From Patescibacteria group bacterium (lineage in GTDB: Bacteria > Patescibacteriota > Patescibacteriia > Magasanikbacterales > GWA2-37-8): a stretch of DNA of 64,000 nt. The DNA is taken from the NCBI GenBank assembly GCA_004321885.1, contig SCQK01000007.1, positions 150,540-214,539 on the forward strand. Direction: 5' to 3'. This document shows positions 2,078 to 18,576 of the stretch, piece after piece. Numbering within the stretch: position 1 is the stretch's first letter; every line of letters begins with the position of its first letter. The notes under the pieces were generated by a model. That model was not told the DNA's origin. It searched no databases and saw only the letters and a program-made list of their open reading frames with translations. The position numbers and the translations under genes are program-made.

Positions 2078-2185
2078 CTGGGGCTCCATAGTCCGAAGTC
2101 TCGCCGCTGGCTCCATACTGTGTGTGGAGCCACAATGCACCCTGGCTCCATAGTCCCCGACTCAATCGGGGCTGTGGAGCCAGCC
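2078..2185. repeat. cluster of GGCTCCAYAG...CTRTGGAGCC hairpin repeats (intergenic copy)
   Basis: ggctccatagtcc...tggagcc arms repeated 3x; the same family sits inside the folC-like gene at 17929-18016. Confidence 0.7.
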
Positions 2186-2192
2186 ATCAATT

Positions 2193-3692
2193 ATGTCCCG
2201 TAAAATTTTTCTCACAATCTTTCTCGCCGCGCTTTTGTTTTCTTTTGCCAGCGCTGATTTCACGCTGGCGGCGGATTATTGCCGCGTAAAATTAGATGTG
2301 ACTGCTGTCAGTAAAACCACTCTTGCTTGCTACGACATTAGCGCTTTATCAAATTATCCAAAGTTCAAAGGAAAAGAGGCGGGAGATATCTGCAATGAAT
2401 TTTACGGCGACTTGGAAAACCAGGAACCGACCGTTAAAAACTATACAGCCCATGAATGTGTTTCGGCAGAGTCTTTGGAAGAGTGCAAAAAAGGAAATGA
2501 AGCGCCGGCCTGCCCCAAAACAAAACTGGAAGTAATCACAAAATTAACAGCTGAACTAAGACCGCCGGCCACGGCTATCCGCATTCCCGGGCTTTCTTTC
2601 AGCGAGATAAACAAAAATATTACCGAAGACGCGGCGGGAAATAAATATCTCAACATCCCCTGGATAGGTGAAATGCTTACAGCCGTGTACAAATTCGCCA
2701 TCACCATTGTCAGCATCGTGGCCGTGATAATGATTATCATTCAGGGCGCGCGGGTGGTGACATCCGGCGGAGGCGAAGCCAAAATGGACGCGTACAAAAA
2801 AATCATTCAGGCCATCATCGGCCTGGCCATCGCCTGGGGTTCTTACGCGATTTTATATAACATCAATCCGGATTTGGTGACCTTCAAGGCGTTGAAGGTG
2901 AGATATATCCAACCCATACCAATGCCAGAATTCGCGGATGATTTACAAACCACAAAAAATGATACAACCAGTGATTCAAGCGGGTATTCTTCTGTGTTTG
3001 CAAATTGTCCAATAACTCTATCAGCTCCATTTTCGCCAAGTGGAAACCCCGCAAACGAAGCGCGAACAAAAGAATTTTATGACAAAATAAATTCGGTTAT
3101 TAAGGGTACTACTTTAAGCGACAAAATATTACAAATCGCCGAAGCCGCTTCAAAATGTCAGATTCATTTTGGCTCATGCGGAAGAACAATAGGAACTGTT
3201 TATACACTGGCTGGTATTACTACAAAAAGTTACGGCAGTGATTGCTTAACAAAACCAAAAGGATGCTGGACGCATGAACAGTCAAAACAACTTAACACCA
3301 TATCAAGTAGCTTGATAAAATCATTTCCAAACTACCGTTGCGGACGAGATTGTAAAGGAAACAAAGACAGCCCGAGCGGCTGTGCTAATTCGGACAAGGA
3401 AGCGAGAAAAAAAATGTTGAGCACTCTGCTATCTGACTCCAACTTGACCAGTAAAGGGTGGCCGGATACTTGGGCTAATGATTTAAAACCTGGAGATACA
3501 TTCTGGGTTTACAATGGGAATACGAGTTGTTCCGGATTGCATACCGCGTTATTTTTAGGGTGGGCGTCAGATGGCGTCGCAAAAGTTATCCAAGGAGCAG
3601 CTGGCAAAGCGGTTGGTATGGGGTCCATTTGCATCAAAAAAAGTTGTGGGGAAAGAATGAATCCTTTAATAAAAACTTTTCGGCCACAATGA
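2193..3692 (+). CDS. secreted Cys-rich protein with a central VirB2/TrbC-pilin-like double-TM segment and a C-terminal papain/NlpC-P60-like Cys-His region (hypothetical)
   Basis: Signal peptide; two TM helices split by a short loop (TAVYKFAITIVSIVAVIMIIIQG...IIGLAIAWGSYAIL); C-terminal TSCSGLH motif. Confidence 0.45.
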   Translation: MSRKIFLTIFLAALLFSFASADFTLAADYCRVKLDVTAVSKTTLACYDISALSNYPKFKGKEAGDICNEFYGDLENQEPTVKNYTAHECVSAESLEECKKGNEAPACPKTKLEVITKLTAELRPPATAIRIPGLSFSEINKNITEDAAGNKYLNIPWIGEMLTAVYKFAITIVSIVAVIMIIIQGARVVTSGGGEAKMDAYKKIIQAIIGLAIAWGSYAILYNINPDLVTFKALKVRYIQPIPMPEFADDLQTTKNDTTSDSSGYSSVFANCPITLSAPFSPSGNPANEARTKEFYDKINSVIKGTTLSDKILQIAEAASKCQIHFGSCGRTIGTVYTLAGITTKSYGSDCLTKPKGCWTHEQSKQLNTISSSLIKSFPNYRCGRDCKGNKDSPSGCANSDKEARKKMLSTLLSDSNLTSKGWPDTWANDLKPGDTFWVYNGNTSCSGLHTALFLGWASDGVAKVIQGAAGKAVGMGSICIKKSCGERMNPLIKTFRPQ

Positions 3693-3787
3693 AAAATCCA
3701 ACTTCAACATTTTTTTGTTCCAACTGCGGCGCCCAGTTCATGAAGTGGACCGGACGGCCCACCCACTTGAACTCGCAATATTTATGA
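3689..3787 (+). pseudogene. truncated, diverged duplicate of the radA 5' zinc-finger segment (32-aa ORF, ATGA overlap with radA)
   Basis: MKNPTSTFFCSNCGAQFMKWTGR... parallels the radA N-terminus FICSNCDAQFTKWVGKCLECGKWGT; ends TGA overlapping the radA ATG at 3784. Confidence 0.35.
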
Positions 3788-5220
3788 AAGATGGCTTTAA
3801 AACAATTTTTATCTGCTCAAATTGCGACGCGCAATTTACCAAGTGGGTGGGTAAATGTTTGGAATGCGGGAAGTGGGGAACAATTGAAAAATCCCAATTT
3901 CCAATTTCCAATTTCCAATCAAATTCCAAACTCCAAAATCCAAACACCCAAAATTATCCACCAGTAACGACGAAAAGACTTTCAGAGATAGACAGCGCGG
4001 AAGCCAAAAGGATAAAAACAAACATTGATGAATTAGACAGAGTGCTTGGAGGGGGGCTCGTGCCGGGCTCCCTTGTTTTATTGGGCGGCGAGCCGGGCAT
4101 CGGCAAATCCACTTTGGCAGCGCAATTGGCGGCCGCGATTCCCAACACCTTATATATTTCCGGCGAAGAATCCGCCGAACAGATTAAATTGCGCTTTGAG
4201 CGATTGGGGATTCCGGGTCAAGCCCGGAATGACAATAATGAGACCTTGCGCTTCGCGAACGCGACGAGCGTGGAGAGTGTGATAGCGGCCATGGATTCCC
4301 CCGTACTTAGTCGGGGGAATGACAGTAAAAACGAGACGGTCGGAATGACAAAACCACAACTCGTTATTGTTGACTCAATTCAGACAACGAGATCAGACGA
4401 AGTAGAGGGCGAGGCCGGAAGTATAAACCAAGTGCGGGCCTGCGCGGTTAAACTCATGGAAGCGGCAAAATCCACGGGCGTACCGATTGTTTTAATCGGC
4501 CAAGTGACCAAAGACGGCGCCGTGGCCGGCCCCAAAACCCTGGAACATCTGGTGGACACTGTGCTCTATCTGGAAGGCGACCGCTTTCACCAATTCAGAA
4601 TCTTGCGCGCCGCCAAAAATCGCTTTGGCTCAACCGATGAAGTCGGAATTTTTTCCATGGAAGAAAACGGCCTGCGAGAAGTGAAAAATCCATCGGCCGC
4701 GTTTTTGTCCGGACGCGAAGAAAATGTGCCCGGCTCTTGCGTTACCTGCCTGATGGAAGGCACCCGTCCCCTGCTGATTGAAGTGCAGGCGCTCGTAACA
4801 AAAACTAACTTCGGCTATCCCCAGCGCCGGGCCTCGGGCTTTGACCTAAACCGCTTGCAAGTGCTTATCGGCGTGCTGACCAAACGCGCCGGACTGCCGC
4901 TGGACACTTATGATGTATTTTTGAATGTCGTGGGCGGGATAAGCGCCGAGGAACCGGCCGTGGACTTGGCCGTGGTGCTCTCCATCGCTTCGGCCACGAA
5001 AAACAAACAACTGCCCAAGGGGCTGGCCGCTTTTGGCGAAGTGGGTTTGGGCGGCGAAGTGCGCGCCGTCAGCCAAGCCAAAAAACGTCTGGATGAAATC
5101 AAAAAAATGGGATTTGAATTCGCCGTGGTGCCGGCTTCTTCCGAAGAATACAAAGCGGGCGGCATCAAAATCGCGCCGGTAAAAAATGTGAAAGAATTAG
5201 TAGAAAGGATTGTCTTGTGA
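3784..5220 (+). CDS. radA: DNA repair protein RadA (Sms)
   Basis: C4 zinc finger, Walker A GGEPGIGKST, Lon-like C-terminal domain; carries three in-frame repeat insertions. Confidence 0.85.
   Translation: MKDGFKTIFICSNCDAQFTKWVGKCLECGKWGTIEKSQFPISNFQSNSKLQNPNTQNYPPVTTKRLSEIDSAEAKRIKTNIDELDRVLGGGLVPGSLVLLGGEPGIGKSTLAAQLAAAIPNTLYISGEESAEQIKLRFERLGIPGQARNDNNETLRFANATSVESVIAAMDSPVLSRGNDSKNETVGMTKPQLVIVDSIQTTRSDEVEGEAGSINQVRACAVKLMEAAKSTGVPIVLIGQVTKDGAVAGPKTLEHLVDTVLYLEGDRFHQFRILRAAKNRFGSTDEVGIFSMEENGLREVKNPSAAFLSGREENVPGSCVTCLMEGTRPLLIEVQALVTKTNFGYPQRRASGFDLNRLQVLIGVLTKRAGLPLDTYDVFLNVVGGISAEEPAVDLAVVLSIASATKNKQLPKGLAAFGEVGLGGEVRAVSQAKKRLDEIKKMGFEFAVVPASSEEYKAGGIKIAPVKNVKELVERIVL
3888..3922 (+). 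repeat. AATTTCC heptamer tandem repeat (x3-4) inside radA, translated as SQFPISNFQ
   Basis: aaaatcccaatttccaatttccaatttccaatc; same element in recG (x2) and the FemAB-like gene, always in the same coding frame. Confidence 0.8.
4208..4234. repeat. GGATTCC-(CGGGTCAAGCCCG)-GGAATGACA palindromic element inside radA
   Basis: ggattccgggtcaagcccggaatgaca; near-identical copy at 11819-11845. Confidence 0.75.
4293..4324. repeat. GGATTCC-CCCGTACTTAGTCGGGG-GAATGACA palindromic element inside radA (translated DSPVLSRGNDS)
   Basis: Copies at 11250-11280, 53496-53538 and 55068-55098 (opposite orientation). Confidence 0.8.
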
Positions 5221-5221
5221 C

Positions 5222-5292
5222 TGTCATTGCGAGGCCTGAAAGGCCGAAGCAATCCCTTGCAATGTGGGATGGGATTGCTTCGCTTCGCTTGC
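5222..5292. terminator. long imperfect palindrome (GTCATTGC...GCAATGAC arms) between convergent radA and recG; likely bidirectional terminator and repeat-family member
   Basis: gtcattgcgaggcctgaaaggccgaagcaatccc...gggattgcttcgcttcgcttgcaatgac. Confidence 0.5.
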
Positions 5293-5299
5293 AATGACA

Positions 5300-7474
5300 T
5301 TACTCCAAATGCACTGCATTCTCCCACTCTTTAATCTTCGCCGTTAAGGTCGGAAATTTCCCCAATCTCGGCGCCACTTGCCGCGCCGCCTCGCGCGCTT
5401 TTTTTATTATCTCTTTATCCGTCAGCTTGGCCAAACGCAAATTCATAAACCCGCTCTGGGCCGTGCCATAGACCTCGCCGGGCCCGCGCATTTCCAAATC
5501 CTTTTCCGCCAGCTTGAACCCGTCGTTATTTTTTTCAAAAAATCGCAGGCGCTCCAGGGCGCGCGGCGACTCCTGCTCCACGAACAAAAAACAATATGAC
5601 TGATGAACCGAACGCCCCACCCGGCCGCGAAATTGGTGTAACTGGGCCAATCCAAACCTCTCGGCCCCCTCTATCATCATCACGCTGGTGTTTGGAATAT
5701 CCACACCCACCTCCACCACAGACGTGGAAACCAAAATATCCAACTCGCGCTTCCTGAATTTTTCCATTGTCCCGTCTTTTTCTTTTGGTTTGAGGCGTCC
5801 ATGCAAATATCCCACCCGCAAATCCGGAAATATATTTTTTGAAAGTTTTTCAAATTCTGAAAGCACCGATTTCTTGTCGTCTTTTGGAAATTGGAAATTG
5901 GAAATTGGAAATTCTTCGTTGTTTGCCCCAATTAAAGGGCAAACAACGAAGCACTGCCTGCCTTTTTTTACTTGTTCGCGGATAAAAGTGTACGCCTTGA
6001 CGCGATTTACCGGCTCCACCAGCCGCGTCAAAATTTTCTTGCGGCCCGGCGGCAATTCGTTGATAATGGAAACATCCAGGTCGCCGTAAACCATGAGGGC
6101 CAGAGAGCGCGGTATCGGCGTGGCGGTCATGCTCAAAAAATGCGCGCCGCCTCCCTTTTCTTTTATCGTCTTTCTCTGCCCCACCCCGAAACGATGCTGT
6201 TCATCCACAATCACCAAACCCAATCTTTCAAACTCCACTCCTTCTGTCAGTAAAGCATGTGTGCCAATAATAATTTGAATATTATTACTCTTGATCTTTT
6301 CCAAAAAATCTTTTTTATTAAATTTTGAAAATTGGTCATTGGTCATTGATTGGAAATTGGAAATTGGAAATTGGGATTTTGAACCAGTCAATAAGCCCAC
6401 TTTAACTTTATGCCCAAGAAGATTAACGATTGAATTATAATGTTGCACCGCAAGTATCTCGGTGGGCGCCATCAGCACGGCTTGGTAGCCATTCAAAGCC
6501 GCGTTGTACATGGCCATAGCCGCCACCACGGTCTTGCCCGAACCGACATCGCCCGACAGCAGGCGATTCATCGGCGTGGTTTTTTGCAAGTCCTGTAAAA
6601 TTTCCCAGGCCGAAATTTTTTGCGTTTTGGTTAGTGTAAAAGGCAAACTCGCCACAAATTCCTTGATGGCGTTTTCGTTAAAAGCGAGGGACGGGGCTTT
6701 GGCGTCGGCTTTTTCCAGCCGCGACAGTTCGGCTTTAAGCTGAATCAAAAATAACTCATCAAATTTCAGACGCTCGGTGCTTTTGGCCAAATCAATTTCA
6801 TCTTTGGGAAAGTGAATACCCTGCAAAGCCGATGATAAAGGCGCTAAATCATACTTGTCTAAAATTTCATCAGGCAGCCATTCTTGCATTGCGGCCGATA
6901 ATACAATCACCTGGCTAACCAAAAAACGAATCTGTTTTTGGGTCAGCCCGGCCGTAAGCGGATACATCGGCACCAGTCGCGCCGTGTGGGTCGTATACAA
7001 ACCCTCCCCTTTCAGAGCCTGCCCTGAACTTGTTTCAGGGGGAGGGACAGAGGGTGGGGTATTCACTCGCTCATACACCGGCCCAATCATCTGCGCCCCC
7101 AACATATCGGTCCGCGCCTTGCCCGACAAAAAAACCTCGTCCCCGGGCCTAAGCGTCTTGCCAATAAACGGCTGATTAAACCAGACCACGCGCAAACTAC
7201 CGCTCGCGTCCGAAACCAGCGCTTCGGTGATGTTTTTTCTCTGACGCGGACTGCGCTTGTTGGCGATGAGCTCAACTTTGGCGCGCACTGTCACCGCCTC
7301 CCCGTGTTTCAGGTCGGCGATTTTTACCACGCTCCGAAAATCCTCGTAACGGAAAGGAAAATAAAAAAGAAGGTCGGCCGCCGTGGCCACACCCAAACGC
7401 TCCAGCCGCTTGGCCGTGGTCTTGCCCACTCGGGAAAGTTGTGAGATTGGGGTGTTTAAGTTCATAATCAGCAT
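5300..7474 (-). CDS. recG: ATP-dependent DNA helicase RecG
   Basis: Wedge domain, GSGKT, DEQHRFGV motifs; two in-frame heptamer-repeat insertions (FPISNFQ). Confidence 0.85.
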   Translation of the reverse strand: MLIMNLNTPISQLSRVGKTTAKRLERLGVATAADLLFYFPFRYEDFRSVVKIADLKHGEAVTVRAKVELIANKRSPRQRKNITEALVSDASGSLRVVWFNQPFIGKTLRPGDEVFLSGKARTDMLGAQMIGPVYERVNTPPSVPPPETSSGQALKGEGLYTTHTARLVPMYPLTAGLTQKQIRFLVSQVIVLSAAMQEWLPDEILDKYDLAPLSSALQGIHFPKDEIDLAKSTERLKFDELFLIQLKAELSRLEKADAKAPSLAFNENAIKEFVASLPFTLTKTQKISAWEILQDLQKTTPMNRLLSGDVGSGKTVVAAMAMYNAALNGYQAVLMAPTEILAVQHYNSIVNLLGHKVKVGLLTGSKSQFPISNFQSMTNDQFSKFNKKDFLEKIKSNNIQIIIGTHALLTEGVEFERLGLVIVDEQHRFGVGQRKTIKEKGGGAHFLSMTATPIPRSLALMVYGDLDVSIINELPPGRKKILTRLVEPVNRVKAYTFIREQVKKGRQCFVVCPLIGANNEEFPISNFQFPKDDKKSVLSEFEKLSKNIFPDLRVGYLHGRLKPKEKDGTMEKFRKRELDILVSTSVVEVGVDIPNTSVMMIEGAERFGLAQLHQFRGRVGRSVHQSYCFLFVEQESPRALERLRFFEKNNDGFKLAEKDLEMRGPGEVYGTAQSGFMNLRLAKLTDKEIIKKAREAARQVAPRLGKFPTLTAKIKEWENAVHLE
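5886..5914. repeat. GGAAATT heptamer x4 (in recG)
   Basis: ggaaattggaaattggaaattggaaattc. Confidence 0.8.
6331..6375. repeat. ATTGGTC x2 plus GGAAATT x3 heptamer repeats (in recG)
   Basis: attggtcattggtcattgattggaaattggaaattggaaattggg. Confidence 0.8.
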
Positions 7475-7518
7475 TATACCAAAACCGGCCGCCTTTGGCG
7501 ACCGGTCTTCATTGATTA

Positions 7519-8922
7519 TTATTCATTGTCCTCTGCTATTCCTTTTCTTGCTCTCTCTCGTTCTTCTCTGGCGGCTTTTGACGAAAATGGTTTATGTGTA
7601 ACTATATCTATCCCTCCTGCTCCTTTTGCAACATGACTTTCAATTTTTTTGTATGGCTTGGGTGTTTTTGGTTTATCAATCACAGGCGCCGCATATTGCT
7701 CCATCACAAACGGTTTCTTTTCCGGCGGTATAAATACTTGCGCCCGCGGACGCTTATTCCTGAATATTGTTTTTGTTTTGTCTACTACTACATCTGTTTC
7801 ATCTACTACTACATCCTTTTCACTTATCGCTTCTTCTTCGCCCGCCTGAAATTCGGCTATCTCGTGCGCCGCACGCTTTTTCGCCTGATAATTCGCCGCT
7901 TCCTGCGCCCCGACAGCGCTCATCGCCAATCCGGCCGCGGCCACGCCAGTAGCCAGCTTGCCTATTTTTCTTCCAACTTTTTTACCCAGGTCCGGTACTG
8001 TCTTATCCGGCGCCACCTCCCGAGCTCGCTCCGTCTGTGGAATATCCTCTATCCTCTTCTCTGTCTTTTGTGCAGACAATAACTCTTCTTGTATCTGTAG
8101 TTCCAGATTAACTATGTCAGCCTTAAGTTGGGCTTTTTGTGCGCGCTTTTCTTTGCTGAATATGGAAAACACGCCAAACCTCGCCAGCTCCGCTTTCTTG
8201 GCCGCGATTTGCGCCGACAATTTATCCATCACGTCGCCCTGTTTAAACCATTTCTTGTCCTCATACGAAAAATCATCTTCCAACAAATTTTCATCAATAC
8301 TCGTCGGCGCGCCATTAGCCTCTTGGTGGACAGCCGCCCACTCCTCCATATCTTTCGCTTTCACGAATGTTTCTTTCGGCTTTTTGTATATCGCCTTGCC
8401 AACTGTTTTCAGCTCTTTTGTTCCTGCCCTATATTCCGCTATTTTATCCTTAAATTCATCCAATTTTTTCCCTAATTCATCCACTTCCTTCTTGGTTGCT
8501 ACAACATCAAAAAATTTTTCCAAAATTTTAACATCTAAATCAAACTCTTTCTTTTCTTCTTTTGACAAACCGCTTTTTGCTTCAACAAATTCATTTCTTG
8601 CTCTATCTAATTCTCGCTTTCTATGTGTTTCTTCCAAGACACCTCTTCCAATCAGTTCCTCAACTTCTTCATCTTCGCTAACAATATCTGTGTCCTTTAT
8701 TCCTTTTTCCCTGGCCCATGGGACGCGTTGTTCTTGAGTAGACGGCGGTAACTCTCTACTTTCTTGAACTTCAAACATATCCCCTTCGTCTAATTCAATG
8801 TCGTTATCTTCGGTTGGAACGGGTGGCATTTTCGCTCGTTTTTTATCCGCTATCAAACGCCCTAATTCTTCGGAGCTTAATCTGCGGGCTAAGCCGCCTT
8901 CGCCTCTTCTTGGCATATACAA
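7519..8922 (-). CDS. K/E-rich coiled-coil protein with one TM segment (hypothetical)
   Basis: Long ORF with coherent composition; the overlapping + strand ORFs are Ser/Leu-rich mirror artefacts. Confidence 0.4.
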   Translation of the reverse strand: MYMPRRGEGGLARRLSSEELGRLIADKKRAKMPPVPTEDNDIELDEGDMFEVQESRELPPSTQEQRVPWAREKGIKDTDIVSEDEEVEELIGRGVLEETHRKRELDRARNEFVEAKSGLSKEEKKEFDLDVKILEKFFDVVATKKEVDELGKKLDEFKDKIAEYRAGTKELKTVGKAIYKKPKETFVKAKDMEEWAAVHQEANGAPTSIDENLLEDDFSYEDKKWFKQGDVMDKLSAQIAAKKAELARFGVFSIFSKEKRAQKAQLKADIVNLELQIQEELLSAQKTEKRIEDIPQTERAREVAPDKTVPDLGKKVGRKIGKLATGVAAAGLAMSAVGAQEAANYQAKKRAAHEIAEFQAGEEEAISEKDVVVDETDVVVDKTKTIFRNKRPRAQVFIPPEKKPFVMEQYAAPVIDKPKTPKPYKKIESHVAKGAGGIDIVTHKPFSSKAAREERERARKGIAEDNE

Positions 8923-11169: not shown

Positions 11170-11170
11170 G

Positions 11171-11818: not shown

Positions 11819-11845
11819 GATTCCGGATCAAGTCCGGAATGACAG
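11819..11845. repeat. ATTCCGGATCAAGTCCGGAATGACA palindromic element
   Basis: Pair of the 4208-4234 copy. Confidence 0.75.
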
Positions 11846-11847
11846 CG

Positions 11848-11921
11848 TGCACGCATCTGGACTCGGACCAGAGACCTCTGTCGTGTGAGGACAGCGCTCT
11901 AACCAACTGAGCTATGCGTGC
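11848..11921 (-). tRNA. tRNA-Val (CAC)
   Basis: GCACGCA acceptor, D-arm TAGCTCAGTTGGTTAGAGC, anticodon loop CTCACAC. Confidence 0.75.
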
Positions 11922-11984
11922 CAGTTTAACCAATCTTATCACAAATTCCAATAGAAATCAAGCCTGCCTGCCGCAAGACAGGCA

Positions 11985-12013
11985 TTGAAAAGCAAATAAA
12001 ATAGTGATACAAT
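11985..12013 (+). promoter_or_regulatory. sigma70-type promoter, TTGAAA-17-TACAAT
   Basis: Directly upstream of the LCP-family gene. Confidence 0.5.
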
Positions 12014-12033
12014 GCGTATTACTTATCCCTCCC

Positions 12034-13554
12034 ATGATTAAAGATACTCAAGACGAAAACGCGGATGAGAACTACGTTGGCCCTGAATTCAAACCCAACC
12101 TGCTCTCGCCCCAGGACTTAAAACCAATCGCGGCCGCGGCCCGACCCAAGCCCTGGCTCTTTTATATTATAGCCATTTTGCTTCTGGCATTTATCGTCAA
12201 TTACAGCGTCAAATTTTATACCCTAATAAAATGGTCGCGCGGCCAAACCAACGTGGACCCGGTCACATTAAAGCCCCGCAAAACCGGTTTGTTTGAAACC
12301 ATCAGAAATTTTTTTGACAGCACGCCCGACATGACCGGCGGAACGGAAAGAATCAATATACTCCTTTTGGGCATCGGCGGCCCGGGCCACGACGGCGCCT
12401 ATCTTAGCGACACCAACATTATTTTAAGCGTCAAGCCGGCTGAAAAAAAAGCCGCGCTTATTTCCATTCCCCGCGACCTGACGGTAAAAATGGACGGCTA
12501 TGGCTACAGAAAAATAAACGAGGCCAACGCCTACGGCGAAATAAAACAAACCGGCGCCGGCGGCGAATACGCGCGCCAAATTTTTGAACAGACTTTCGGC
12601 ATGACCATTCCCTACTACGCGCGCGTGGATTTTCAAGCCTTTGTGGATTTGGTGGACGCGGTGGGAGGCGTGGATGTAAACGTTCCCCGCGCTTTCACGG
12701 ATTATTCATACCCGGGGCCGAATTATTCCTACCAAACCATCTCTTTCGCGGACGGCTGGCAGCACCTGGACGGCGCCCGCGCTCTTGTTTACGCGCGCTC
12801 GCGCCACGGCAGTAATGGCGAGGGTTCGGATTTCGCGCGCGCTCGCCGACAGCAAACGGCAATTTCCGCCCTGAAAGAAAAATTCTTGTCCGCCGGCACC
12901 CTGCTCAACCCGGTTCGCCTGCAAAAAATTATTGACTCGCTCACGACCCACATCTCCACCAATTTAAGCTTCGCGCAAATCAAATACCTGGCCGACTTGT
13001 CCAAAGAAATCGGCGACGACAGCGTGAAGACCCTGGTCCTGGACGACAGCCCGGGCGGATTTTTGGGCACCACCATTTCCGAGGAAGGCGCCTTTCTGCT
13101 GGTGCCCCGGACTGGAAATTTTACCGCCATCAACAGCGCCATTTGGAATGTCTTTGAAAGCACGAGCACGGCCAGACTGGCCAGCGAGACGCGCGCTGCT
13201 TCGGCCGCGGCCAAGCCCTTATTTCTCATGGTCAAGGTGGAAATCCAAAACGGCACCTGGCGCGCAGGCTATGCCGCCAAAATTAAGCAGGAGCTCGCGG
13301 ACAAGGGTTATAACATTTCCGGAATCGGCAACAGCGTCAAAAGACCGGTGGCGACCTCTACTATATATATATTAAACAAAAAGGCCGACAAAAAAACCAT
13401 CAGCGACCTGGCTAATACTATGAATTTGCCAGTCACGGTAATTTTGCCCGAATGGCTGGCCTACTCTTATGACGACCCAGCCACCTCTGCTAGTGAAGCG
13501 GGCGCCAAGTACCGCGCGGACACGGATATATTGATAGTGCTGGGAGAACAATAA
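12034..13554 (+). CDS. LytR-CpsA-Psr (LCP) family cell-envelope protein
   Basis: TM anchor plus LCP core (ARVDFQAFVDLVDAVGGVDVNV); start moved downstream of the promoter to MIKDTQDEN. Confidence 0.7.
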   Translation: MIKDTQDENADENYVGPEFKPNLLSPQDLKPIAAAARPKPWLFYIIAILLLAFIVNYSVKFYTLIKWSRGQTNVDPVTLKPRKTGLFETIRNFFDSTPDMTGGTERINILLLGIGGPGHDGAYLSDTNIILSVKPAEKKAALISIPRDLTVKMDGYGYRKINEANAYGEIKQTGAGGEYARQIFEQTFGMTIPYYARVDFQAFVDLVDAVGGVDVNVPRAFTDYSYPGPNYSYQTISFADGWQHLDGARALVYARSRHGSNGEGSDFARARRQQTAISALKEKFLSAGTLLNPVRLQKIIDSLTTHISTNLSFAQIKYLADLSKEIGDDSVKTLVLDDSPGGFLGTTISEEGAFLLVPRTGNFTAINSAIWNVFESTSTARLASETRAASAAAKPLFLMVKVEIQNGTWRAGYAAKIKQELADKGYNISGIGNSVKRPVATSTIYILNKKADKKTISDLANTMNLPVTVILPEWLAYSYDDPATSASEAGAKYRADTDILIVLGEQ

Positions 13555-13555
13555 T

Positions 13556-14920
13556 ATGGCCACGCCCGCGAAAATTATAGAAGAAAACTTGCCGACCGTG
13601 GCCTTGGTAGGCCGCGTTAACGTGGGCAAATCCACCCTGTTCAACAAGCTCATCGGCCAAAACCGCGCCCTGGTTTCCAAAATTCCGGGCACCACGCGCA
13701 CGCCCAATACGGGTAAAGTTTTTTGGCGCGGCCAAAATTTCCGACTGATAGACACGGGCGGGCTCACCTTTTCCGATGATGTGCCGTTGGAAAAAGAAAT
13801 TATCGCCCAAACCGAAATGGCGCTCGCCAAAGCCGATGCCGTGATTTTTTTGACTGATATTCAAACCGGCCTTTTGCCCCAAGAACGCGAGCTGGCGCGC
13901 CGCCTGATAAAAAACAAGGAACGGGTGCTGTTTACGGCCAACAAGGCCGACAACGAACGCCTGCGCTTATTGGCTCATGAAAAAGACTGGCTGAAACTCG
14001 GTTTGGGAGCGCCCTTGCCCATTTCCGCGGCCAGCGGGGCCAATGTGGGCGAACTGCTGGAGCGCGTCTTTGCCAAATTGGGCAAACTGAAAAAGCGGCC
14101 GAAAAAAATAAAAGAAATTGCGGCGATAAAAGTGGCGATTGTGGGCCGGCCCAATGTGGGCAAGTCGTCTTTGTTTAATAATTTAATCGGCGCCCAATCC
14201 GCCATTGTCAGCGACATGCCCCACACCACGCGCGAACCGCTGGATACTTTGGTCAATTTTGAAAGCCATCCCATTGTTTTTGTGGACACGGCCGGCATCA
14301 GGCGCAAGGCCAAAGTGGCCGGGGAATTGGAACGCGAGGGCATTGCCAAAAGCATACAAATGATACAAAAATCCGATATTGTGCTTTTGGTGCTGGACAC
14401 GGGCGAGCCCCTTTCCTCGCAAGACCAGCAGCTGGGCGGACTCTTGCGCGAAAACACCAAGAGCGTGATTATTGTTTTAAACAAATGGGACCTGGCCGAA
14501 AGCAACGAGGACTCGTTTAGAAACGAGGTGAAAAAAAGAATTTACGGCGCGTTCCCACATTTGGATTTCGCGCCGATTGTTTTTACCAGCGCCAAAACCC
14601 AGTACCGCGTGCACCAAATTTTTCCTCTTATCTTGCGCGCCTGGGACGAAAGGCATACAATTATTCCCGAAGAGAAATTGGACGAATTCTGGAAAAAAGT
14701 GAGCCGCGAGCACCGGCCGGCGCGAGGCAAGGGCACCAGGCATCCCAAAATTTTGGGCTTCTGCCAGTTGCGCGCCAGCCCGCCTATGTTTGAAATGCAA
14801 ATCAAGGCCAAGACGTCTTTGCATTTTTCTTATGTGCGCTATATTGAAAACCGCTTGCGCGAACATTTTGGTTTTTTCGCCACGCCGATTGTGATAAAAC
14901 TAACAAAGGTGAAGAGATAG
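13556..14920 (+). CDS. der: ribosome-associated GTPase Der (EngA)
   Basis: Two tandem GTPase domains (GRVNVGKSTLFN, GRPNVGKSSLFN) plus KH-like C-terminus. Confidence 0.9.
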   Translation: MATPAKIIEENLPTVALVGRVNVGKSTLFNKLIGQNRALVSKIPGTTRTPNTGKVFWRGQNFRLIDTGGLTFSDDVPLEKEIIAQTEMALAKADAVIFLTDIQTGLLPQERELARRLIKNKERVLFTANKADNERLRLLAHEKDWLKLGLGAPLPISAASGANVGELLERVFAKLGKLKKRPKKIKEIAAIKVAIVGRPNVGKSSLFNNLIGAQSAIVSDMPHTTREPLDTLVNFESHPIVFVDTAGIRRKAKVAGELEREGIAKSIQMIQKSDIVLLVLDTGEPLSSQDQQLGGLLRENTKSVIIVLNKWDLAESNEDSFRNEVKKRIYGAFPHLDFAPIVFTSAKTQYRVHQIFPLILRAWDERHTIIPEEKLDEFWKKVSREHRPARGKGTRHPKILGFCQLRASPPMFEMQIKAKTSLHFSYVRYIENRLREHFGFFATPIVIKLTKVKR

Positions 14921-14921
14921 C

Positions 14922-15392
14922 ATGAAATTAATTGTCGGTCTGGGAAATCCGGGAAAAGAATACGAAGGCACGCGGCATAACGTGGGATTTTTTTGCGTTG
15001 ATAAATTAAAGGAGGCGCTGGCCGGCGCGAAAATAATTTTTGCCAAGCCGGATAAATTTATGAACAACTCGGGCCCGGCCGTGGCCAAAATTTTGCGCTA
15101 CCATAAAATAAAACCGAGCGACCTGCTGGTGATTCACGACGACAAAGACATTCCACTCGGCGAATACAAAATCCAGACCGGACGCGGCTCGGCCGGGCAC
15201 AAGGGCGCGCAGTCTATCATTGACGCTTTGGACACGAAAGATTTCACGCGCCTGCGCGTCGGAATCGCGCCCACGGATAAAGAAATAAAAAACACGAGCG
15301 ATTTTGTGCTGAAAAAATTTAGCAAAAAAGAAAAAGAAATAATCAATCAAGTTAGTAATGAAATAGTTGAACGGATAAAATCTCAAATATGA
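14922..15392 (+). CDS. pth: peptidyl-tRNA hydrolase
   Basis: MKLIVGLGNPGKEYEGTRHNVGF signature. Confidence 0.8.
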   Translation: MKLIVGLGNPGKEYEGTRHNVGFFCVDKLKEALAGAKIIFAKPDKFMNNSGPAVAKILRYHKIKPSDLLVIHDDKDIPLGEYKIQTGRGSAGHKGAQSIIDALDTKDFTRLRVGIAPTDKEIKNTSDFVLKKFSKKEKEIINQVSNEIVERIKSQI

Positions 15393-16471
15393 ACTATCGC
15401 GCGGCGCTGGCCCATTTCCCGAAAATTACGTACGGAAGGTACAAAAAAATTCTGGACCTTTTTTCGGATTTGAAAAATTTGTGGCAGGCGGAAATGGAAG
15501 AACTGACGCAAGCCGGCCTGGAAGAAAACATCGCGCACGAATTTTTGCTCTGGCGCGAATCCAACCCGGCCGGCTCCATTTTGGAACGGATGAAAAAAGA
15601 AAAAATTAAAACCGTGTCTTTGGGCGACCCGGCTTACCCGGCTTTGCTCGCCGAAATAAACGACCCGCCCATGACTTTGTTTTATCGCGGAGTTTTGGAA
15701 GCGGACAACGGCCCGGCCGTGGCCGTGGTGGGCACGCGCAATTGCACCATGTACGGCCAGCAGGTCTGCGTGGAAATCAGCGGCGCCTTGGCGCGGCAAG
15801 GCATTACAGTGGTCAGCGGACTGGCGCTGGGGCTGGACGGCGCGGCCCACCAGGCGGCCTTGGAAAACAAAGGCAGGACCATTGCCGTGCTCGGCTCGGG
15901 CATTGACGACGCGCATATTTATCCTTCGGCTCATCGCCCATTGGCGCAAAAAATCATCGCCGAGGGCGGGGCCGTTGTTTCCGAATATCCGCCGGGCTTT
16001 TTGGCCGCGCCCTATTCTTTTCCGGCGCGCAACCGCATCATCGCCGGGCTGTCGCTGGGCACGTTGGTGGTGGAAGCCCCCGAGGAATCCGGCGCGCTCA
16101 TTACCGCGCGCTGCGCCCTTGATTACAACCGCGAAGTTTTTGCCGTGCCGCACAATATTACTTCCGCAAACGGCGTAGGGTGCAACAACCAATTAAAACT
16201 CGGGGCCAAACTCGTTACCTCGGCCGACGATATATTGGAGGCTTTAAATCTAAAAAGTCTGGCCCAAACCGTGCTTTTGAAAAAAGAACCGGCCGCGTCA
16301 AACCCGACCGAAGAAGCGGTGCTGGCACAGCTGTCGCGCGAACCCAAACACATAGACGCCGTGGCCAAGGAAACAGGCATTGACAGCCGGCTAATAAGTA
16401 GTACACTAACGCTGTTGGAAATAAAAGGAGTGGTAAAAAATCTGGGGGGAATGAATTATGTTGTAAGTTAA
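15389..16471 (+). CDS. dprA: DNA processing protein DprA (Smf)
   Basis: Rossmann core VVGTRNCTMYG...SGLALGLDGAAHQAAL; C-terminal wHTH. Confidence 0.8.
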   Translation: MNYRAALAHFPKITYGRYKKILDLFSDLKNLWQAEMEELTQAGLEENIAHEFLLWRESNPAGSILERMKKEKIKTVSLGDPAYPALLAEINDPPMTLFYRGVLEADNGPAVAVVGTRNCTMYGQQVCVEISGALARQGITVVSGLALGLDGAAHQAALENKGRTIAVLGSGIDDAHIYPSAHRPLAQKIIAEGGAVVSEYPPGFLAAPYSFPARNRIIAGLSLGTLVVEAPEESGALITARCALDYNREVFAVPHNITSANGVGCNNQLKLGAKLVTSADDILEALNLKSLAQTVLLKKEPAASNPTEEAVLAQLSREPKHIDAVAKETGIDSRLISSTLTLLEIKGVVKNLGGMNYVVS

Positions 16472-16528
16472 GTGTCAAAAACATAAGTACTAAATAAAAA
16501 GCCCGCAAAGAGTCAATAATTTTTATCT

Positions 16529-17200
16529 ATGACAAAATCAACCATACAAAAAATTGTATTCACAATCATATTTGTAGCCATCGGCTTCGGCCTGATGCAA
16601 GTGCCATTTACCCAGCTGATAGGCTCAAAATTAAAATTCACTTTGTTTGATTTTTACGGCCCAATCGCCGGCGGATTTCTGGGTTCGGTTTGGGGTATGA
16701 TTACGGTTTTGGCAATGCAAATCGCCAACTGGGCTTGGCACGGATTTAACACCGAAACAGCCACCCTTATTCGCTTTTTCCCCATGCTGTTCGCGGTTTT
16801 GTACTTTGCCAGAAAATCACGCGCCATTTTGGCAGTGCCGGTCATCGCCATGCTCGTGTTTTGGGCGCATCCCGAGGGCAGGCAGGCTTGGCACTTCGCT
16901 CTGTATTGGCTGATTCCTTTGGCAGCGCACTTTTTCCGAAATAAAATTTTGTTCGCGCGCGCTTTGGGCACGACCTTTACGGCCCACGCGGTGGGCGGCG
17001 CATTGTGGATTTGGTTTGTGCCCGGCATGAAGGCCGCGGCCTGGATAGGCCTCATTCCGGTGGTTTGGAAAGAACGCGGGCTGATGGCAATCGGCATTAC
17101 CTTGTCTTTCGTCGTCTTCAATTTCCTCTTCAGCCTGGCCGCTAAAAAAATCCGGGGCCTGGACTTTCTGAAACTTCACCCAAAGTATTCGGTCAAATGA
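16529..17200 (+). CDS. polytopic membrane protein, ECF-transporter S-component-like (possibly folate-family, given folC-like neighbour)
   Basis: 5-6 TM helices in ~220 aa; 4-nt overlap with the Mur-ligase gene. Confidence 0.35.
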   Translation: MTKSTIQKIVFTIIFVAIGFGLMQVPFTQLIGSKLKFTLFDFYGPIAGGFLGSVWGMITVLAMQIANWAWHGFNTETATLIRFFPMLFAVLYFARKSRAILAVPVIAMLVFWAHPEGRQAWHFALYWLIPLAAHFFRNKILFARALGTTFTAHAVGGALWIWFVPGMKAAAWIGLIPVVWKERGLMAIGITLSFVVFNFLFSLAAKKIRGLDFLKLHPKYSVK

Positions 17201-18576
17201 ACTTCCAAGAGGCCTACAATTACATAATCTCCCTGGCCAATATTCCGCGCAAAGAATACATGGCCGACCCCAAACATTGCCCCTGGTACTTAAAACGGTT
17301 GAAGTTTTTTTTGCGTATTTTGGGAAATCCGGAGAAAAAAATACCCCACATCATACACGTTACCGGCACCAGCGGCAAGGGTTCGGTCTGCCTGATGTTG
17401 GACTCCATTCTGCGTGAAGCGGCCCGCCACCGCGCCAAAAATTTTGGTGTGGTGGGCACGCTCACATCGCCTCACGCCTCGGCCATTATGGAGCGCTGGG
17501 AAGTAAACGGCCGGCCAATGCCTAAAAAAGAATTCGCGGCGCTGGTAGAAAAAATCAAGCCCAAACTGGACCAGTATATGCGCAAAACGCCGTATGACAT
17601 GCTCGCCTACGGCGAACTGGCCACGGCTATGGCGCTTTACTATTTCGCCAAAAAAAAAATAGAATGGGCCGTGCTGGAAGTGGGCTGCGGCGGACGCTAT
17701 GATTCCACCAATGTAATCCCGCGCAAAGATGTGGCCGTGATAACTAATATCGGCCTTGATCATACGCAAACACTCGGCAATACCAAAGAAAAAATCGCCT
17801 ATGAAAAAGCCGGCATTATCAAACGCGGATGCCAGGTGTTCACGATGGAAACAAACAAAAAAATTCTGCGCGTGATAGAAAAAGAATGCCAAAAAAATCA
17901 CGCCCCGCTTAAAATTGTCTACCCCTTAGGCTGGCTCCATAGTTCCGCCAAAGGCGGACTGTGGAGCCAACGAATGCACTCTGGCTCCACAGCCCTTTGG
18001 GACTATGGAGCCAGCCGCCTCCCGGTTCTCGGCGCCCATCAACAAAAAAACGCGGCCCTCGCGGCCGCGGTGGCGCGTTCAATCGGCATCTCCGAAAAAG
18101 CAATCACGCGCGGCCTGGCCAAAGTAAAATTGCCAATCAGAATGGAAGTCGTTTCGCGCAAGCCCATAGTCATCTTAGACGGCGCGCACAACAAGGACAA
18201 AATGCAAACAACAGTGGAAGCAATCTCCTCCCCCTTTATAAGGGGGAGGCGTGGTGGGGGTAGGGGTAACATCCACCTCATCCTCGGCTTTGCCGACAAT
18301 AAGGACTACCCGGCCATGCTCAAACAGCTCGCGGCGCTAAAACCAACCACCGTCGCCTGCACCCGCTTCAGCCACAATTTCTTCCGCAAGGCCGCGGACC
18401 CCAAAATCCTGGCGGCCAAAATAAAAAAACTGCTTCCCCGCGCCAAAACCGAAATTTTTTTGGATGTTTTAGACGGCTTCAGCTGGAGCAAAAAACAAGC
18501 CGCGCCCAGCGACATTATCCTCTGCACCGGCTCCATATTCCTAAGCGGCGAATTGCGTCTCAAAATTATCAGGTGA
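17197..18576 (+). CDS. Mur-ligase family protein, folylpolyglutamate synthase (FolC)-like
   Basis: HVTGTSGKGSV P-loop, Mur-ligase middle and C-terminal domains; two in-frame repeat insertions. Confidence 0.6.
   Translation: MNFQEAYNYIISLANIPRKEYMADPKHCPWYLKRLKFFLRILGNPEKKIPHIIHVTGTSGKGSVCLMLDSILREAARHRAKNFGVVGTLTSPHASAIMERWEVNGRPMPKKEFAALVEKIKPKLDQYMRKTPYDMLAYGELATAMALYYFAKKKIEWAVLEVGCGGRYDSTNVIPRKDVAVITNIGLDHTQTLGNTKEKIAYEKAGIIKRGCQVFTMETNKKILRVIEKECQKNHAPLKIVYPLGWLHSSAKGGLWSQRMHSGSTALWDYGASRLPVLGAHQQKNAALAAAVARSIGISEKAITRGLAKVKLPIRMEVVSRKPIVILDGAHNKDKMQTTVEAISSPFIRGRRGGGRGNIHLILGFADNKDYPAMLKQLAALKPTTVACTRFSHNFFRKAADPKILAAKIKKLLPRAKTEIFLDVLDGFSWSKKQAAPSDIILCTGSIFLSGELRLKIIR
17929..18016. 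repeat. two tandem GGCTCCAYAG...CTRTGGAGCC hairpins inserted in frame in the folC-like gene
   Basis: Translated GWLHSSAKGGLWSQRMHSGSTALWDYGAS; same family as 2078-2185. Confidence 0.75.
18225..18266. repeat. CCCTCC-loop-GGAGGG hairpin element inside the folC-like gene (translated PFIRGRRGGGRGN)
   Basis: ctcctccccctttataagggggaggcgtggtgggggtagggg. Confidence 0.75.

What the first reader, a model, noticed from the sequence alone, without database searches (positions are those of the whole stretch)
2078..18016. Third element family: GGCTCCAYAG...CTRTGGAGCC nested hairpins, intergenic and in frame in the folC-like gene
Two tandem hairpins at 17929-18016 add ~29 aa (GWLHSSAKGGLWSQRMHSGSTALWDYGAS) to the Mur-ligase protein. 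Three related hairpins fill the dsbA-like to ORF3 spacer at 2078-2185. One intergenic copy nests an inner CCCCGAC-loop-GTCGGGG core identical to the core of the GTCATTCC family and to three 23S rRNA hairpins. That points to a modular system built on a common CCCGAC/GTCGGG hairpin.
Basis: seen in the sequence. Interest (0 to 1): 0.6.

Follow-up and report, generated by a model that had tools for sequence, protein, structure and literature searches.

The report
REP/REPIN mobile hairpins, some inside genes
The GGCTCCAYAG hairpins are a previously undescribed class of REP/REPIN mini-elements, partnered with a RAYT tyrosine transposase that is widespread in Patescibacteria (CPR); they sometimes land in frame inside working genes such as this FolC-like ligase, which is a known behaviour of such elements, not a new kind of system.

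Summary
Hairpins with GGCTCCAYAG/CTRTGGAGCC arms lie at 2082-2181 (intergenic) and at 17933-18012, in frame in a FolC-like Mur ligase. A decayed copy lies at 51589-51624.

The hairpin is oriented. Its consensus is G-Y-T | GGCTCCATAG | bulged T | CCC-loop-GGG | CTGTGGAGCC | N4 | TGCA. Copies usually occur as inverted doublets around a central TGCA, as REPINs do.

In other genomes the same hairpins flank a 180-aa Y1/HUH transposase, in inverted orientation. Its only match among solved structures is E. coli TnpA-REP (4ER8). Of 40 gene loci at least 59% identical to this transposase, 37 carry the hairpin within 250 nt. None of 13 loci at 50% identity or less do.

Copies occur in at least nine named Patescibacteria (CPR) candidate groups, and in Nitrospinota and Pseudomonadota MAGs. 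Elsewhere they sit in frame inside ValRS, MurF-like, UppP, GT2 and hydrolase genes.

None of 27 FolC homologues has the insert. It is modelled as a disordered loop at a length-variable site.

The conserved parts are the outer stem and the 5' tag, and CCCGA belongs to the family-wide inner consensus.

Verdict: a new member of a known kind (REP/RAYT, with RPE-like intragenic copies). No RAYT lies in the window, and the rest of this genome could not be read.

The parts
2082..2108 (+). Truncated REP. It keeps the left arm GGCTCCATAG and part of the inner stem-loop (tccgaagtctcg), but has no right arm of its own.
   Evidence: The inner sequence closely matches the full copy in L022 (tcccgaagtctcggga). 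It appears to have been interrupted by the doublet that follows (inference).
2103..2136 (+). First REP of the intergenic doublet. It has the GCT tag and arms GGCTCCATAC/GTGTGGAGCC, the inner stem is deleted, and N4-TGCA follows.
   Evidence: R1 model match, 21.9 bits, E = 2.8e-05. Sequence read.
2136..2139 (.). Central palindromic TGCA of the intergenic doublet. The spacer is acaaTGCAccct, i.e. N4-TGCA-N4.
   Evidence: TGCA at +5 to +8 is conserved in 56-77 of 102 copies.
2138..2191 (+). Second REP of the intergenic doublet: GGCTCCATAG-T-CCCCGA-ctcaa-TCGGGG-CTGTGGAGCC. The hairpin fits the + orientation, but the flanks (TGCA-N4 on the left, AGC on the right) fit the - orientation.
   Evidence: R1 scores 38.6 bits on + and 34.3 bits on -. 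It ends 8 nt before the ATG at 2193 and follows the dsbA-like stop codon at 2070-2072.
17197..18576 (+). Host gene: FolC-like Mur ligase of 459 aa (GenBank TAN33605.1, EPN28_02230). The reading frame is intact.
   Evidence: Pfam Mur_ligase_M and Mur_ligase_C. It aligns with 27 homologues with 59 invariant columns. AF2 model: mean pLDDT 83.9, pTM 0.81.
17927..17978 (+). REP in forward orientation inside folC: GCT | GGCTCCATAG | T | TCCGCC-aaa-GGCGGA | CTGTGGAGCC | aacgaa TGCA.
   Evidence: R1 match, 40.1 bits, E = 7.8e-12.
17973..18018 (-). REP in reverse orientation inside folC. With the previous part it forms an inverted doublet (REPIN) centred on TGCA at 17975-17978. Together they encode residues 245-273.
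   Evidence: R1 match, 51.9 bits, E = 4.5e-16. Residues 246-273 have pLDDT < 50. The doublet is stop-free in 4 of 6 frames.
51583..51634 (+). Decayed single REP: GGCTCCGTTG-T-CCCCC-agaa-TGGGGA-CTGTGGAGTC-gcgt-TGCA. It overlaps the last ~20 codons of a small ORF (51562-51873, minus strand) and encodes ...RDSTVPILGDNGAG...
   Evidence: R1 match, 17.0 bits, E = 0.0018. ORF translation.

Best explanation
**What it is.** The GGCTCCAYAG hairpins are REP sequences (repetitive extragenic palindromes), mostly arranged as inverted doublets (REPINs). They belong to a REP class that partners a clade of RAYT transposases (REP-associated tyrosine transposases, Y1/HUH, IS200-like fold). That clade is widespread in Patescibacteria (CPR).

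**Proposed mechanism.** The RAYT recognises the hairpin on single-stranded DNA. It reads the conserved outer stem with its T.G wobble, the bulged T, and the G-Y-T tag at the 5' foot. It cuts beside the hairpin with its catalytic tyrosine and rejoins the element elsewhere, most likely at replication forks, moving the doublet as one unit.

**Why some copies sit in genes.** These genomes have very little intergenic space, so many insertions fall in genes. The element is stop-free in 4 of 6 frames. Insertions that preserve the frame and fall in tolerant surface loops survive selection.

**The three loci in this window.**
- The folC copy is such a survivor. It replaces or extends a dispensable, length-variable loop with about 29 disordered residues.
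- The 2078-2191 block is an ordinary intergenic doublet inserted into an older REP.
- The 51.6-kb copy is an old, decaying singleton forming a C-terminal tail.

**Shown.** Element anatomy and polarity; doublet organisation; physical linkage of the hairpin to the RAYT gene in many genomes; covariation of hairpin class with RAYT clade; HUH and Tyr motifs; in-frame copies in real genes; lineage-specificity and disorder of the FolC insert.

**Inferred.** Cleavage and strand transfer by the RAYT; the single-stranded intermediate; that this genome has (or had) its own RAYT; that the decorated FolC is active.
For: **1. The hairpin has a fixed polarity.** 102 non-redundant copies give the consensus Y-G-Y-T | GGCTCCATAG | T-CCC-G..A-GGG | CTGTGGAGCC | N4-TGCA. 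G is at -3 in 90 of 102 copies and the bulged T is present in 97 of 102. The correct strand scores about 50-69 bits and the opposite strand about 18-30 bits.

**2. The inner stem covaries.** 10 cells carry double changes against 1.4 +/- 1.0 in shuffles, and 0 of 500 shuffles reach the observed value.

**3. Copies form inverted doublets.** Forward-then-reverse pairs with outward tags dominate over the opposite order, roughly 11 to 2 among close pairs. The two window doublets share a near-identical spacer (acaaTGCAccct and aacgaaTGCActct), as expected if the doublet is copied as a unit.

**4. The hairpins flank a RAYT gene.**
- In L065 a 180-aa ORF lies between the two inverted hairpins. It matches Pfam Y1_Tnp (E = 1.1e-05).
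- Its only PDB match is 4ER8, E. coli TnpA-REP (E = 0.0035), aligned over the C-terminal YI(H/Y)xNPVK region.
- The same arrangement is seen in L045, L106 and L010 and in L117/L118 and L119.
- Among 58 metagenome RAYT loci, 37 of 40 with at least 59% identity have the hairpin within 250 nt, 33 of them on both sides. None of 13 with 50% identity or less do.
- By my reading of the R1 table, at least 26 loci have a forward-strand match upstream and a reverse-strand match downstream.

**5. REP class covaries with RAYT clade.** Clades at 50-63% identity carry related but different stems behind the same GTTGG/GCTGG tag. The 40-46% clade carries unrelated AAGCGTCCACGCTT-type hairpins.

**6. The RAYT motifs are conserved.** The HUH motif (H61, H63) and Y141 are invariant in 21 sequences. 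JGI annotates some members as 'REP element-mobilizing transposase RayT'.

**7. The FolC insert is lineage-specific and disordered.** It is absent from 27 homologues. Its residues 246-273 are the only long stretch with pLDDT < 50 in an otherwise confident model.

**8. In-frame copies occur in other real genes.** They lie inside Pfam-supported genes in other genomes: alpha/beta hydrolase, two Mur ligases, ValRS, a GT2 glycosyltransferase, BacA/UppP and an MFS transporter.

**9. The precedent exists.** Intragenic, coding REPs and Rickettsia RPEs are documented (PMC3733652). The REPIN/RAYT model is set out in PMC3116915 and PMC5581495, and the REP-RAYT co-crystal structure in PMC3479197.
Against: - No RAYT gene lies in the 64-kb window (tblastn). 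The rest of this MAG could not be read, so a cognate RAYT in this genome is unproven.
- P0230 (TAN32770.1) is a RAYT of this clade from the same GenBank batch. By accession arithmetic it more likely belongs to another MAG.
- The 5' tag (GYT/GYTG) is neither GTAG nor CGTC, the two tags that cover most described REPs (PMC3733652).
- RAYT-mediated transposition of REPs has never been shown directly in vivo for any system (established knowledge; PMC5581495 discusses this).
- Only five to six copies lie in 64 kb, so high copy number in this particular genome is extrapolated.
- The exact-arm search ascertained the outer stem, so its invariance in that set is partly circular. However, the RAYT-anchored loci were found independently of the hairpin.
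Confidence: 0.85

Rival explanations
1. The hairpins are the ends of a true, self-mobile IS200/IS605-type insertion sequence. The short copies would then be its deletion derivatives (MITE/PATE), not a domesticated RAYT with a REPIN population.
For: - The flanked gene is a Y1_Tnp family member.
- Protein identity of 60-89% is seen across CPR lineages and beyond, including Nitrospinota, Pseudomonadota, and contigs labelled Methylomirabilis and Promethearchaeota. That fits horizontal spread typical of an IS.
- L119 shows the whole gene-plus-hairpins unit sitting inside a duplicated Gp49-like gene.
Against: - The two flanking hairpins are the same sequence in inverted orientation. IS200/IS605 ends carry different left and right hairpins on one strand (established knowledge; PMC6006769).
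- No tnpB partner was seen in the one locus whose called genes were inspected (L117).
- The best and only structural relative is TnpA-REP, not an IS608 or ISDra2 TnpA.
- Short doublets far outnumber gene-carrying units.
- The element is essentially absent from 2.9 million viral contigs.
Confidence: 0.07
2. The hairpin is primarily a functional RNA structure, for example an mRNA stabiliser, a processing site or a protein-binding site. Selection at the RNA level would then maintain it, and its spread would be secondary.
For: - One strand gives a U.G wobble while the other gives a C.A mismatch, and this asymmetry is conserved.
- G.T pairs in REP stems have been read as a sign of RNA-level function (PMC3733652).
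- The intergenic copy sits exactly between a stop codon and the next start codon.
Against: - Doublets present both orientations to any transcript, so there is no consistent polarity relative to transcription.
- Copies lie on both strands and inside coding sequence in several frames.
- No Rfam family matches above threshold.
- No terminator-like T run follows.
- Strand asymmetry is equally expected for a protein that reads one DNA strand, as in the TnpA-REP co-crystal (PMC3479197).
- A subset of family members replaces the wobble with a T-A pair.
Confidence: 0.05
3. The families in this genome are modular shells built around one shared CCCGAC/GTCGGG core hairpin, and a single RNA-binding protein or nuclease recognises that core.
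For: - CCCGAC-N(2-9)-GTCGGG is strongly over-represented: 7 matches against 0.02 expected.
- It is nested in five GTCATTCC elements.
- One REP copy has the similar CCCCGA...TCGGGG.
- Both families share the plan of a fixed outer stem plus a variable inner stem-loop.
Against: - Only one of five REP copies in the window has this core, and it fails the exact pattern.
- The other inner stems are TCCGCC/GGCGGA, CCC/GGG, CCCCC/GGGG(A), or deleted.
- In 102 copies from other genomes the inner stem varies and covaries, while the outer stem and tag are fixed.
- CCCGA arises from the family consensus TCCCGATAGGG.
- The RAYT clade covaries with the outer stem.
Confidence: 0.03

Closest known systems
REP/BIME sequences and TnpA-REP (RAYT) of Escherichia coli (structure 4ER8; PMC3479197)
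   Same: - A short imperfect palindrome with a conserved short tag at the 5' foot.
- Inverted pairs of the palindrome.
- A Y1/HUH transposase gene flanked by inverted copies.
- TnpA-REP is the only solved structure that matches the CPR protein.
   Different: - The tag is G-Y-T(G), not GTAG.
- The stem sequence is unrelated.
- The protein match is remote (E = 0.0035).
- Hosts are CPR bacteria with genomes of about 1 Mb.
- Many copies lie inside genes.
REPIN-RAYT systems of Pseudomonas fluorescens SBW25 (PMC3116915, PMC5581495)
   Same: - The doublet of two inverted REPs is the replicating unit.
- Doublets flank the RAYT gene.
- REP class is specific to RAYT clade.
   Different: - The spacer here can be as short as 12 nt (N4-TGCA-N4).
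- The same REP class and RAYT clade span many phylum-level lineages, whereas the described systems are reported as mostly vertically inherited.
- RAYT group membership (groups 1-5) was not determined.
Rickettsia palindromic elements (RPEs) and other intragenic REPs (PMC3733652)
   Same: - Palindromic repeats inserted in frame in apparently functional genes, adding short peptide segments.
- Housekeeping and repair genes are often hit.
   Different: - The RPEs that PMC3733652 links to REPs (RPE-4 and RPE-6) fall in its CGTC-tagged families, and Rickettsia has no clear cognate RAYT.
- Here the partner transposase is identified and the element has a different tag and stem.
IS200/IS605-derived PATE/MITE elements
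   Same: - Hairpin-bearing small non-autonomous elements.
- They depend on a Y1 transposase acting on single-stranded DNA.
   Different: Those elements have distinct left and right ends on one strand. Here the ends are identical inverted hairpins.

Membership tests
REP/REPIN with RAYT (REPtron) | Short (20-40 nt) imperfect palindrome repeated many times in a genome | tested here: met
   - The hairpin is 31-38 nt.
- Five model-confirmed copies plus one truncated copy lie in 64 kb.
- Up to 9 copies lie in 6 kb of another MAG (L066).
- The genome-wide count for this MAG is not available.
REP/REPIN with RAYT (REPtron) | Conserved short tag 5' of the hairpin foot, giving the element a polarity | tested here: met
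   G is at -3 in 90 of 102 copies, Y at -2 in 90 of 102 (C 44, T 46) and T at -1 in 71 of 102. The tag sequence is GYT(G), not the GTAG or CGTC of the described superfamilies (PMC3733652).
REP/REPIN with RAYT (REPtron) | Copies paired in inverted orientation (REPIN/BIME) | tested here: met
   Both window loci are inverted doublets. Forward-then-reverse pairs predominate in other genomes. The doublet folds at -38.2 kcal/mol, z = -10.2.
REP/REPIN with RAYT (REPtron) | Inverted REPs flank a RAYT gene | tested here: met
   This holds in other genomes: L065, L045, L106, L010, L117 and L119. 37 of 40 metagenome loci at 59% identity or more carry the hairpin, against 0 of 13 at 50% or less. It could not be tested for the window's own genome, and no RAYT lies in the window.
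REP/REPIN with RAYT (REPtron) | The transposase has the HUH motif, a catalytic Tyr and RAYT-type C-terminal region | tested here: met
   H61-x-H63 and Y141 are invariant. Pfam Y1_Tnp matches. The only PDB match is TnpA-REP, over YIxxNPVK.
REP/REPIN with RAYT (REPtron) | [quoted passage not shown] | not tested
   No complete genome of a carrier was available to the tools.
REP/REPIN with RAYT (REPtron) | Extragenic location | tested here: not met
   - Two of three window loci overlap coding sequence.
- 38 of 153 exact hairpins lie at least 30 codons inside stop-free frames of 200 codons or more.
- Ten such host frames were scanned against Pfam and all ten match a family.
- This departure has precedent (PMC3733652) and is not disqualifying.
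REP/REPIN with RAYT (REPtron) | RAYT binds and cleaves the REP as single-stranded DNA | not testable with these tools
   This needs biochemistry.
IS200/IS605 insertion sequence or its PATE derivatives | Different left-end and right-end hairpins on the same strand, often with tnpB | tested here: not met
   The ends are the same hairpin in inverted orientation. No tnpB lies next to the gene in L117.
Integron attC / CRISPR repeat / intrinsic terminator | Cassette-bounding sites of 57-141 nt; or regularly spaced repeats with unique spacers; or a stem followed by a T run | tested here: not met
   - Units are 31-38 nt.
- Tandem arrays repeat the whole unit, spacer included (L064).
- No T run follows.
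- The perfectly paired matches with T runs (for example L002, L016, L050) are unrelated terminators.

The most novel reading that the evidence does not exclude
One REP class and its RAYT clade are shared, nearly unchanged, across many phylum-level CPR lineages and a few other phyla. The proteins are 60-89% identical, more conserved than FolC is among its closest homologues (mostly labelled Magasanikbacteria). This pair could be a horizontally travelling system that routinely rewrites surface loops of essential enzymes (FolC, MurF, ValRS, UppP) in minimal genomes. That would make it a significant source of the lineage-specific protein insertions typical of CPR. It would also be an exception to the view that REPIN-RAYT systems are vertically inherited.
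Probability: 0.2. Interest if true: 0.6.

Novelty: new member of a known kind. Interest (0 to 1): 0.42.

Why it matters
- **It explains odd sequence in CPR genomes.** Repeated hairpins, and peptides such as GSTALRDYGA, WLHSPxGLWSQ and APQPYGTMEP that appear inside unrelated proteins or as spurious small ORFs, all come from this element.
- **It gives REPIN-RAYT biology a new test case.** The genomes are very small and have almost no intergenic space, so the cost of insertion is high. In-frame survivors can be counted.
- **It supplies practical tools.** The covariance model and the consensus allow these inserts to be masked or flagged in annotation and in protein alignments.
- **It does not reveal a new kind of mechanism.**

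Tried and rejected
- **Locating the window's genome.** Exact look-ups of FolC (P0001) and of the batch-mate RAYT (P0230) in the contig index found nothing. Accession and locus-tag arithmetic suggests P0230 belongs to another MAG. I therefore do not use it as evidence for this genome.
- **Viral collections.** One hairpin hit and no RAYT were found, so a phage vehicle is unlikely.
- **Rfam.** Only sub-threshold microRNA-like hairpin noise matched.
- **Literature.** No paper in the held library links RAYT or REP to CPR/Patescibacteria, and none contains the sequence.
- **Readings considered and rejected.**
  - Integron attC: the units are too short and bound no cassettes.
  - CRISPR: the arrays repeat the spacer as well.
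  - Terminators: no T run follows.
  - Chance or coding-driven palindromes: contradicted by the shuffle statistics and by copies outside genes.
- **Unrelated hits.** Matches in Pseudomonas (47-nt units in a conserved locus) and Brachybacterium, and the terminator-like hits, are perfectly paired and lack the tag, bulge and TGCA. They are not family members.

Full report
**Source and setting.** The window comes from a 214.5-kb contig of a Patescibacteria (CPR) MAG. Its FolC-like protein is GenBank TAN33605.1, locus tag EPN28_02230. Its closest relatives are mostly labelled Magasanikbacteria, at 50-59% identity. The window is full of short palindromic repeats of several families. It also holds a 23S rRNA gene with group I introns.

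**Checking the observation.**
- With at most 1 mismatch the arm occurs 17 times, against 3.7 expected. None of 100 shuffles reaches 17.
- All nine exact arms lie at 2082-2181 or 17933-18012.
- The folC copy is in frame. Codons 245-273 read GWLHSSAKGGLWSQRMHSGSTALWDYGAS.
- Of the three intergenic 'hairpins', the first (2082-2108) is only a left half.
- A further, decayed copy at 51589-51624 forms the C-terminal tail of a small ORF.

**Anatomy.** Laying the hits side by side showed that the hairpin is not a symmetric palindrome.
- It occurs in one oriented form and in the reverse complement of that form.
- From 102 non-redundant copies the forward form is Y-G-Y-T | GGCTCCATAG | T | CCC-G..A-GGG | CTGTGGAGCC | N4 | TGCA.
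- The forward strand pairs with a T.G wobble. The reverse strand would carry a C.A mismatch.
- A bulged T follows the left arm in 97 of 102 copies.
- The three inner pairs covary (CCC/GGG, GGC/GCC, CTC/GAG). Ten cells carry double changes against 1.4 expected, and none of 500 shuffles reaches that.
- A covariance model built only from foreign copies (R1) scores the correct strand at about 50-69 bits and the wrong strand at about 18-30 bits.
- In the window R1 finds exactly five sites and nothing else.

**Doublets.** Close pairs are almost always forward then reverse, with tags pointing outward and the TGCA motifs meeting in the middle.
- The intergenic window copy has the minimal spacer N4-TGCA-N4 (acaaTGCAccct).
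- The folC copy has aacgaaTGCActct.
- The near-identity of these spacers suggests the doublet, not the single hairpin, is what is copied within this genome (inference).
- As single-stranded DNA the folC doublet folds at -38.2 kcal/mol (z = -10.2). In the minimum-energy fold, arms pair across the two units, which is the 'REP doublet forming a hairpin' geometry.

**The partner gene.** Some forward and reverse hairpins lie 0.4-1.4 kb apart.
- In L065 the interval holds a 180-aa ORF with the Pfam Y1_Tnp domain.
- The only solved structure it matches is 4ER8, E. coli TnpA-REP. The alignment runs over the region containing the catalytic tyrosine.
- tblastn found the same gene beside the hairpins in L045, L106 and L010.
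- Contexts fetched for two homologues showed the same layout: L117/L118 (a 565-kb Parcubacteria contig) and L119.
- The family is large and strongly conserved. 963 proteins match, and the best 120 are 63-100% identical. HUH and Tyr are invariant in 21 aligned members.
- JGI names some members 'REP element-mobilizing transposase RayT'.

**An independent test of the linkage.** I fetched metagenome loci using the protein alone and then looked for the hairpin.

| RAYT identity to query | Loci | Hairpin within 250 nt | On both sides |
|---|---|---|---|
| 59% or more | 40 | 37 | 33 |
| 51-58% | 5 | 3 | 3 |
| 50% or less | 13 | 0 | 0 |

By my reading of the R1 table, at least 26 loci have a forward-strand match upstream and a reverse-strand match downstream.

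More distant clades carry other hairpins:
- The 50-63% clades keep the GTTGG/GCTGG tag with different stems: GGCTCCAGGC, GGTTCAAGTC and GGTTGAATG.
- The 40-46% clade has AAGCGTCCACGCTT-type repeats.

Hairpin class therefore tracks transposase clade. This is the signature of a cognate REP-RAYT pair as described for other bacteria (PMC3116915, PMC5581495, PMC6006769).

**The FolC insert.**
- None of 27 homologues carries the insert.
- The segment between invariant E230 and H281 is 50 aa here and 21-74 aa in homologues. Removing the 29 element-encoded residues leaves 21, the length of the shortest homologues.
- Several homologues carry other repeat-like inserts at this loop and at a second loop (for example SSARASLGMTS and PLLVGEGAGVRS). 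I therefore suggest both loops tolerate insertions (inference).
- The window protein itself has a second element, of another family, in frame at 18222-18267.
- An AlphaFold2 model is confident overall (mean pLDDT 83.9, pTM 0.81). It has pLDDT below 50 at 246-273, exactly the doublet peptide, at 352-355 in the second insert, and at 93-95.
- The residues conserved across the alignment are retained in the window protein.
- Taken together, this looks like an intact gene carrying a disordered surface loop. Activity was not tested.

**Intragenic copies elsewhere.**
- 38 of 153 exact hairpins lie at least 30 codons inside stop-free frames of 200 codons or more.
- Ten such frames were scanned against Pfam and all matched a family: alpha/beta hydrolase, two Mur ligases, valyl-tRNA synthetase, a GT2 glycosyltransferase, BacA/UppP, an MFS transporter and others.
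- The doublet is stop-free in 4 of 6 frames. Roughly two in nine random genic insertions would therefore keep the downstream frame open (inference).
- Intragenic, coding REPs, and the REP-like RPEs of Rickettsia, are already documented (PMC3733652).

**The 'modular CCCGAC' idea.**
- The exact pattern CCCGAC-N(2-9)-GTCGGG hits seven sites, against 0.02 expected. Six are in the 23S rRNA and intron region and one is at 41304. None is in this family.
- That hairpin is nested in five GTCATTCC elements.
- The one REP copy with a similar core has CCCCGA-ctcaa-TCGGGG.
- CCCGA...TCGGG extensions recur in copies from unrelated genomes (L007, L022, L103, L111). They can be derived from the family consensus TCCCGATAGGG.
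- The features conserved across the family are the outer stem, the tag and the bulge, and stem class tracks RAYT clade. The RAYT therefore probably reads those features, not the inner core (inference).

**Distribution.**
- Model-confirmed copies occur in MAGs labelled Parcubacteria/Paceibacterota, Falkowbacteria, Magasanikbacteria, Moraniibacteriota, Kuenenbacteria, Doudnabacteria, Peregrinibacteria, Peribacteria and Saccharibacteria. They also occur in Nitrospinia/Nitrospinota MAGs and in Gammaproteobacteria and Pseudomonadota MAGs.
- The element is essentially absent from viral contigs.
- RAYT identity across these groups (60-89%) exceeds FolC identity among its closest homologues (50-59%). 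That fits either very slow evolution or horizontal transfer. I could not distinguish the two.

**Limits.**
- No RAYT lies in the window, and the rest of this MAG could not be retrieved.
- The outer-stem invariance in the set is partly due to how that set was found. The RAYT-anchored set does not share that bias.
- Cleavage and mobilisation by the RAYT are inferred from homology and genomic linkage.

**Verdict.** The finding is real and is explained. It is a new REP/REPIN class with its RAYT, widespread in CPR, with RPE-like in-frame copies. It is a new member of a known kind, of moderate interest.

Noticed in passing
window 18222-18267: The FolC-like gene carries a second in-frame palindromic element of a different family (CCCCCTT..AAGGGGG followed by GGTGGGGG). 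It encodes about SSPFIRGRRGGGRG, at a second length-variable loop. pLDDT is below 50 at residues 352-355.
   Followed up: partly
window 4226-4349, 52880-52918, 53505-53538, 55067-55109 (and 12 more GTCATTCC words): The GTCATTCC...GGAATCC family has 16 GTCATTCC words against 1.65 expected. Like the REP, it has a fixed outer stem and a variable inner stem-loop. Several copies lie inside long ORFs (RadA/KaiC-like, phosphofructokinase, and others). It may be another REP class; no partner gene was identified.
   Followed up: partly
window 41304-41318 and 59578-61513: The 15-17 nt hairpin CCCGAC-TAA/TAG-GTCGGG occurs seven times, against 0.02 expected. Six copies lie within the 23S rRNA and group I intron region. 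The same hairpin is nested in five GTCATTCC elements.
   Followed up: partly
window 57075-63378: The 23S rRNA gene is split. The Rfam LSU model matches 61196-63378 and 57075-60033. There are two group I introns (57411-57693 and 59542-59780) and an unexplained gap of about 1.16 kb at 60033-61196.
   Followed up: no
window 3879-3944, 5870-5913, 6318-6393: Tandem TTGGAAA heptamer runs lie inside coding DNA (RadA-like and RecG ORFs). FolC homologues P0005, P0006 and P0035 carry ISNKISNIQ-like peptides at the same loop where the window has the REPIN.
   Followed up: no
L119 1184-2379: On a contig labelled Promethearchaeota, the RAYT with its flanking REPs sits between two Gp49/HigB-like gene pieces. 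The same sequence of at least 55 nt is repeated on both sides. This could be a duplication, an insertion into a toxin gene, or an assembly effect.
   Followed up: partly
L073 1596-1881; L064 2470-2902; L129 2110-2416: Same-orientation REPs form head-to-tail arrays with periods of 46 nt and 69 nt, and irregular spacing of about 70-87 nt in L129. Flanks are repeated along with the hairpin, which is unlike the usual inverted doublets.
   Followed up: no
L146, L156, L161, L163, L164, L167-L178: Neighbouring RAYT clades carry different hairpins. Clades at 50-63% identity keep the GTTGG/GCTGG tag with stems GGCTCCAGGC, GGTTCAAGTC or GGTTGAATG. The 40-46% clade has AAGCGTCCACGCTT-type repeats. Together they form a ready-made series for studying co-evolution of REP and RAYT.
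   Followed up: partly
window 2172-2195: The right arm of the intergenic REP supplies a GGAG 13 nt upstream of the ATG of the next gene (2193). The element may therefore overlap that gene's ribosome-binding site.
   Followed up: no
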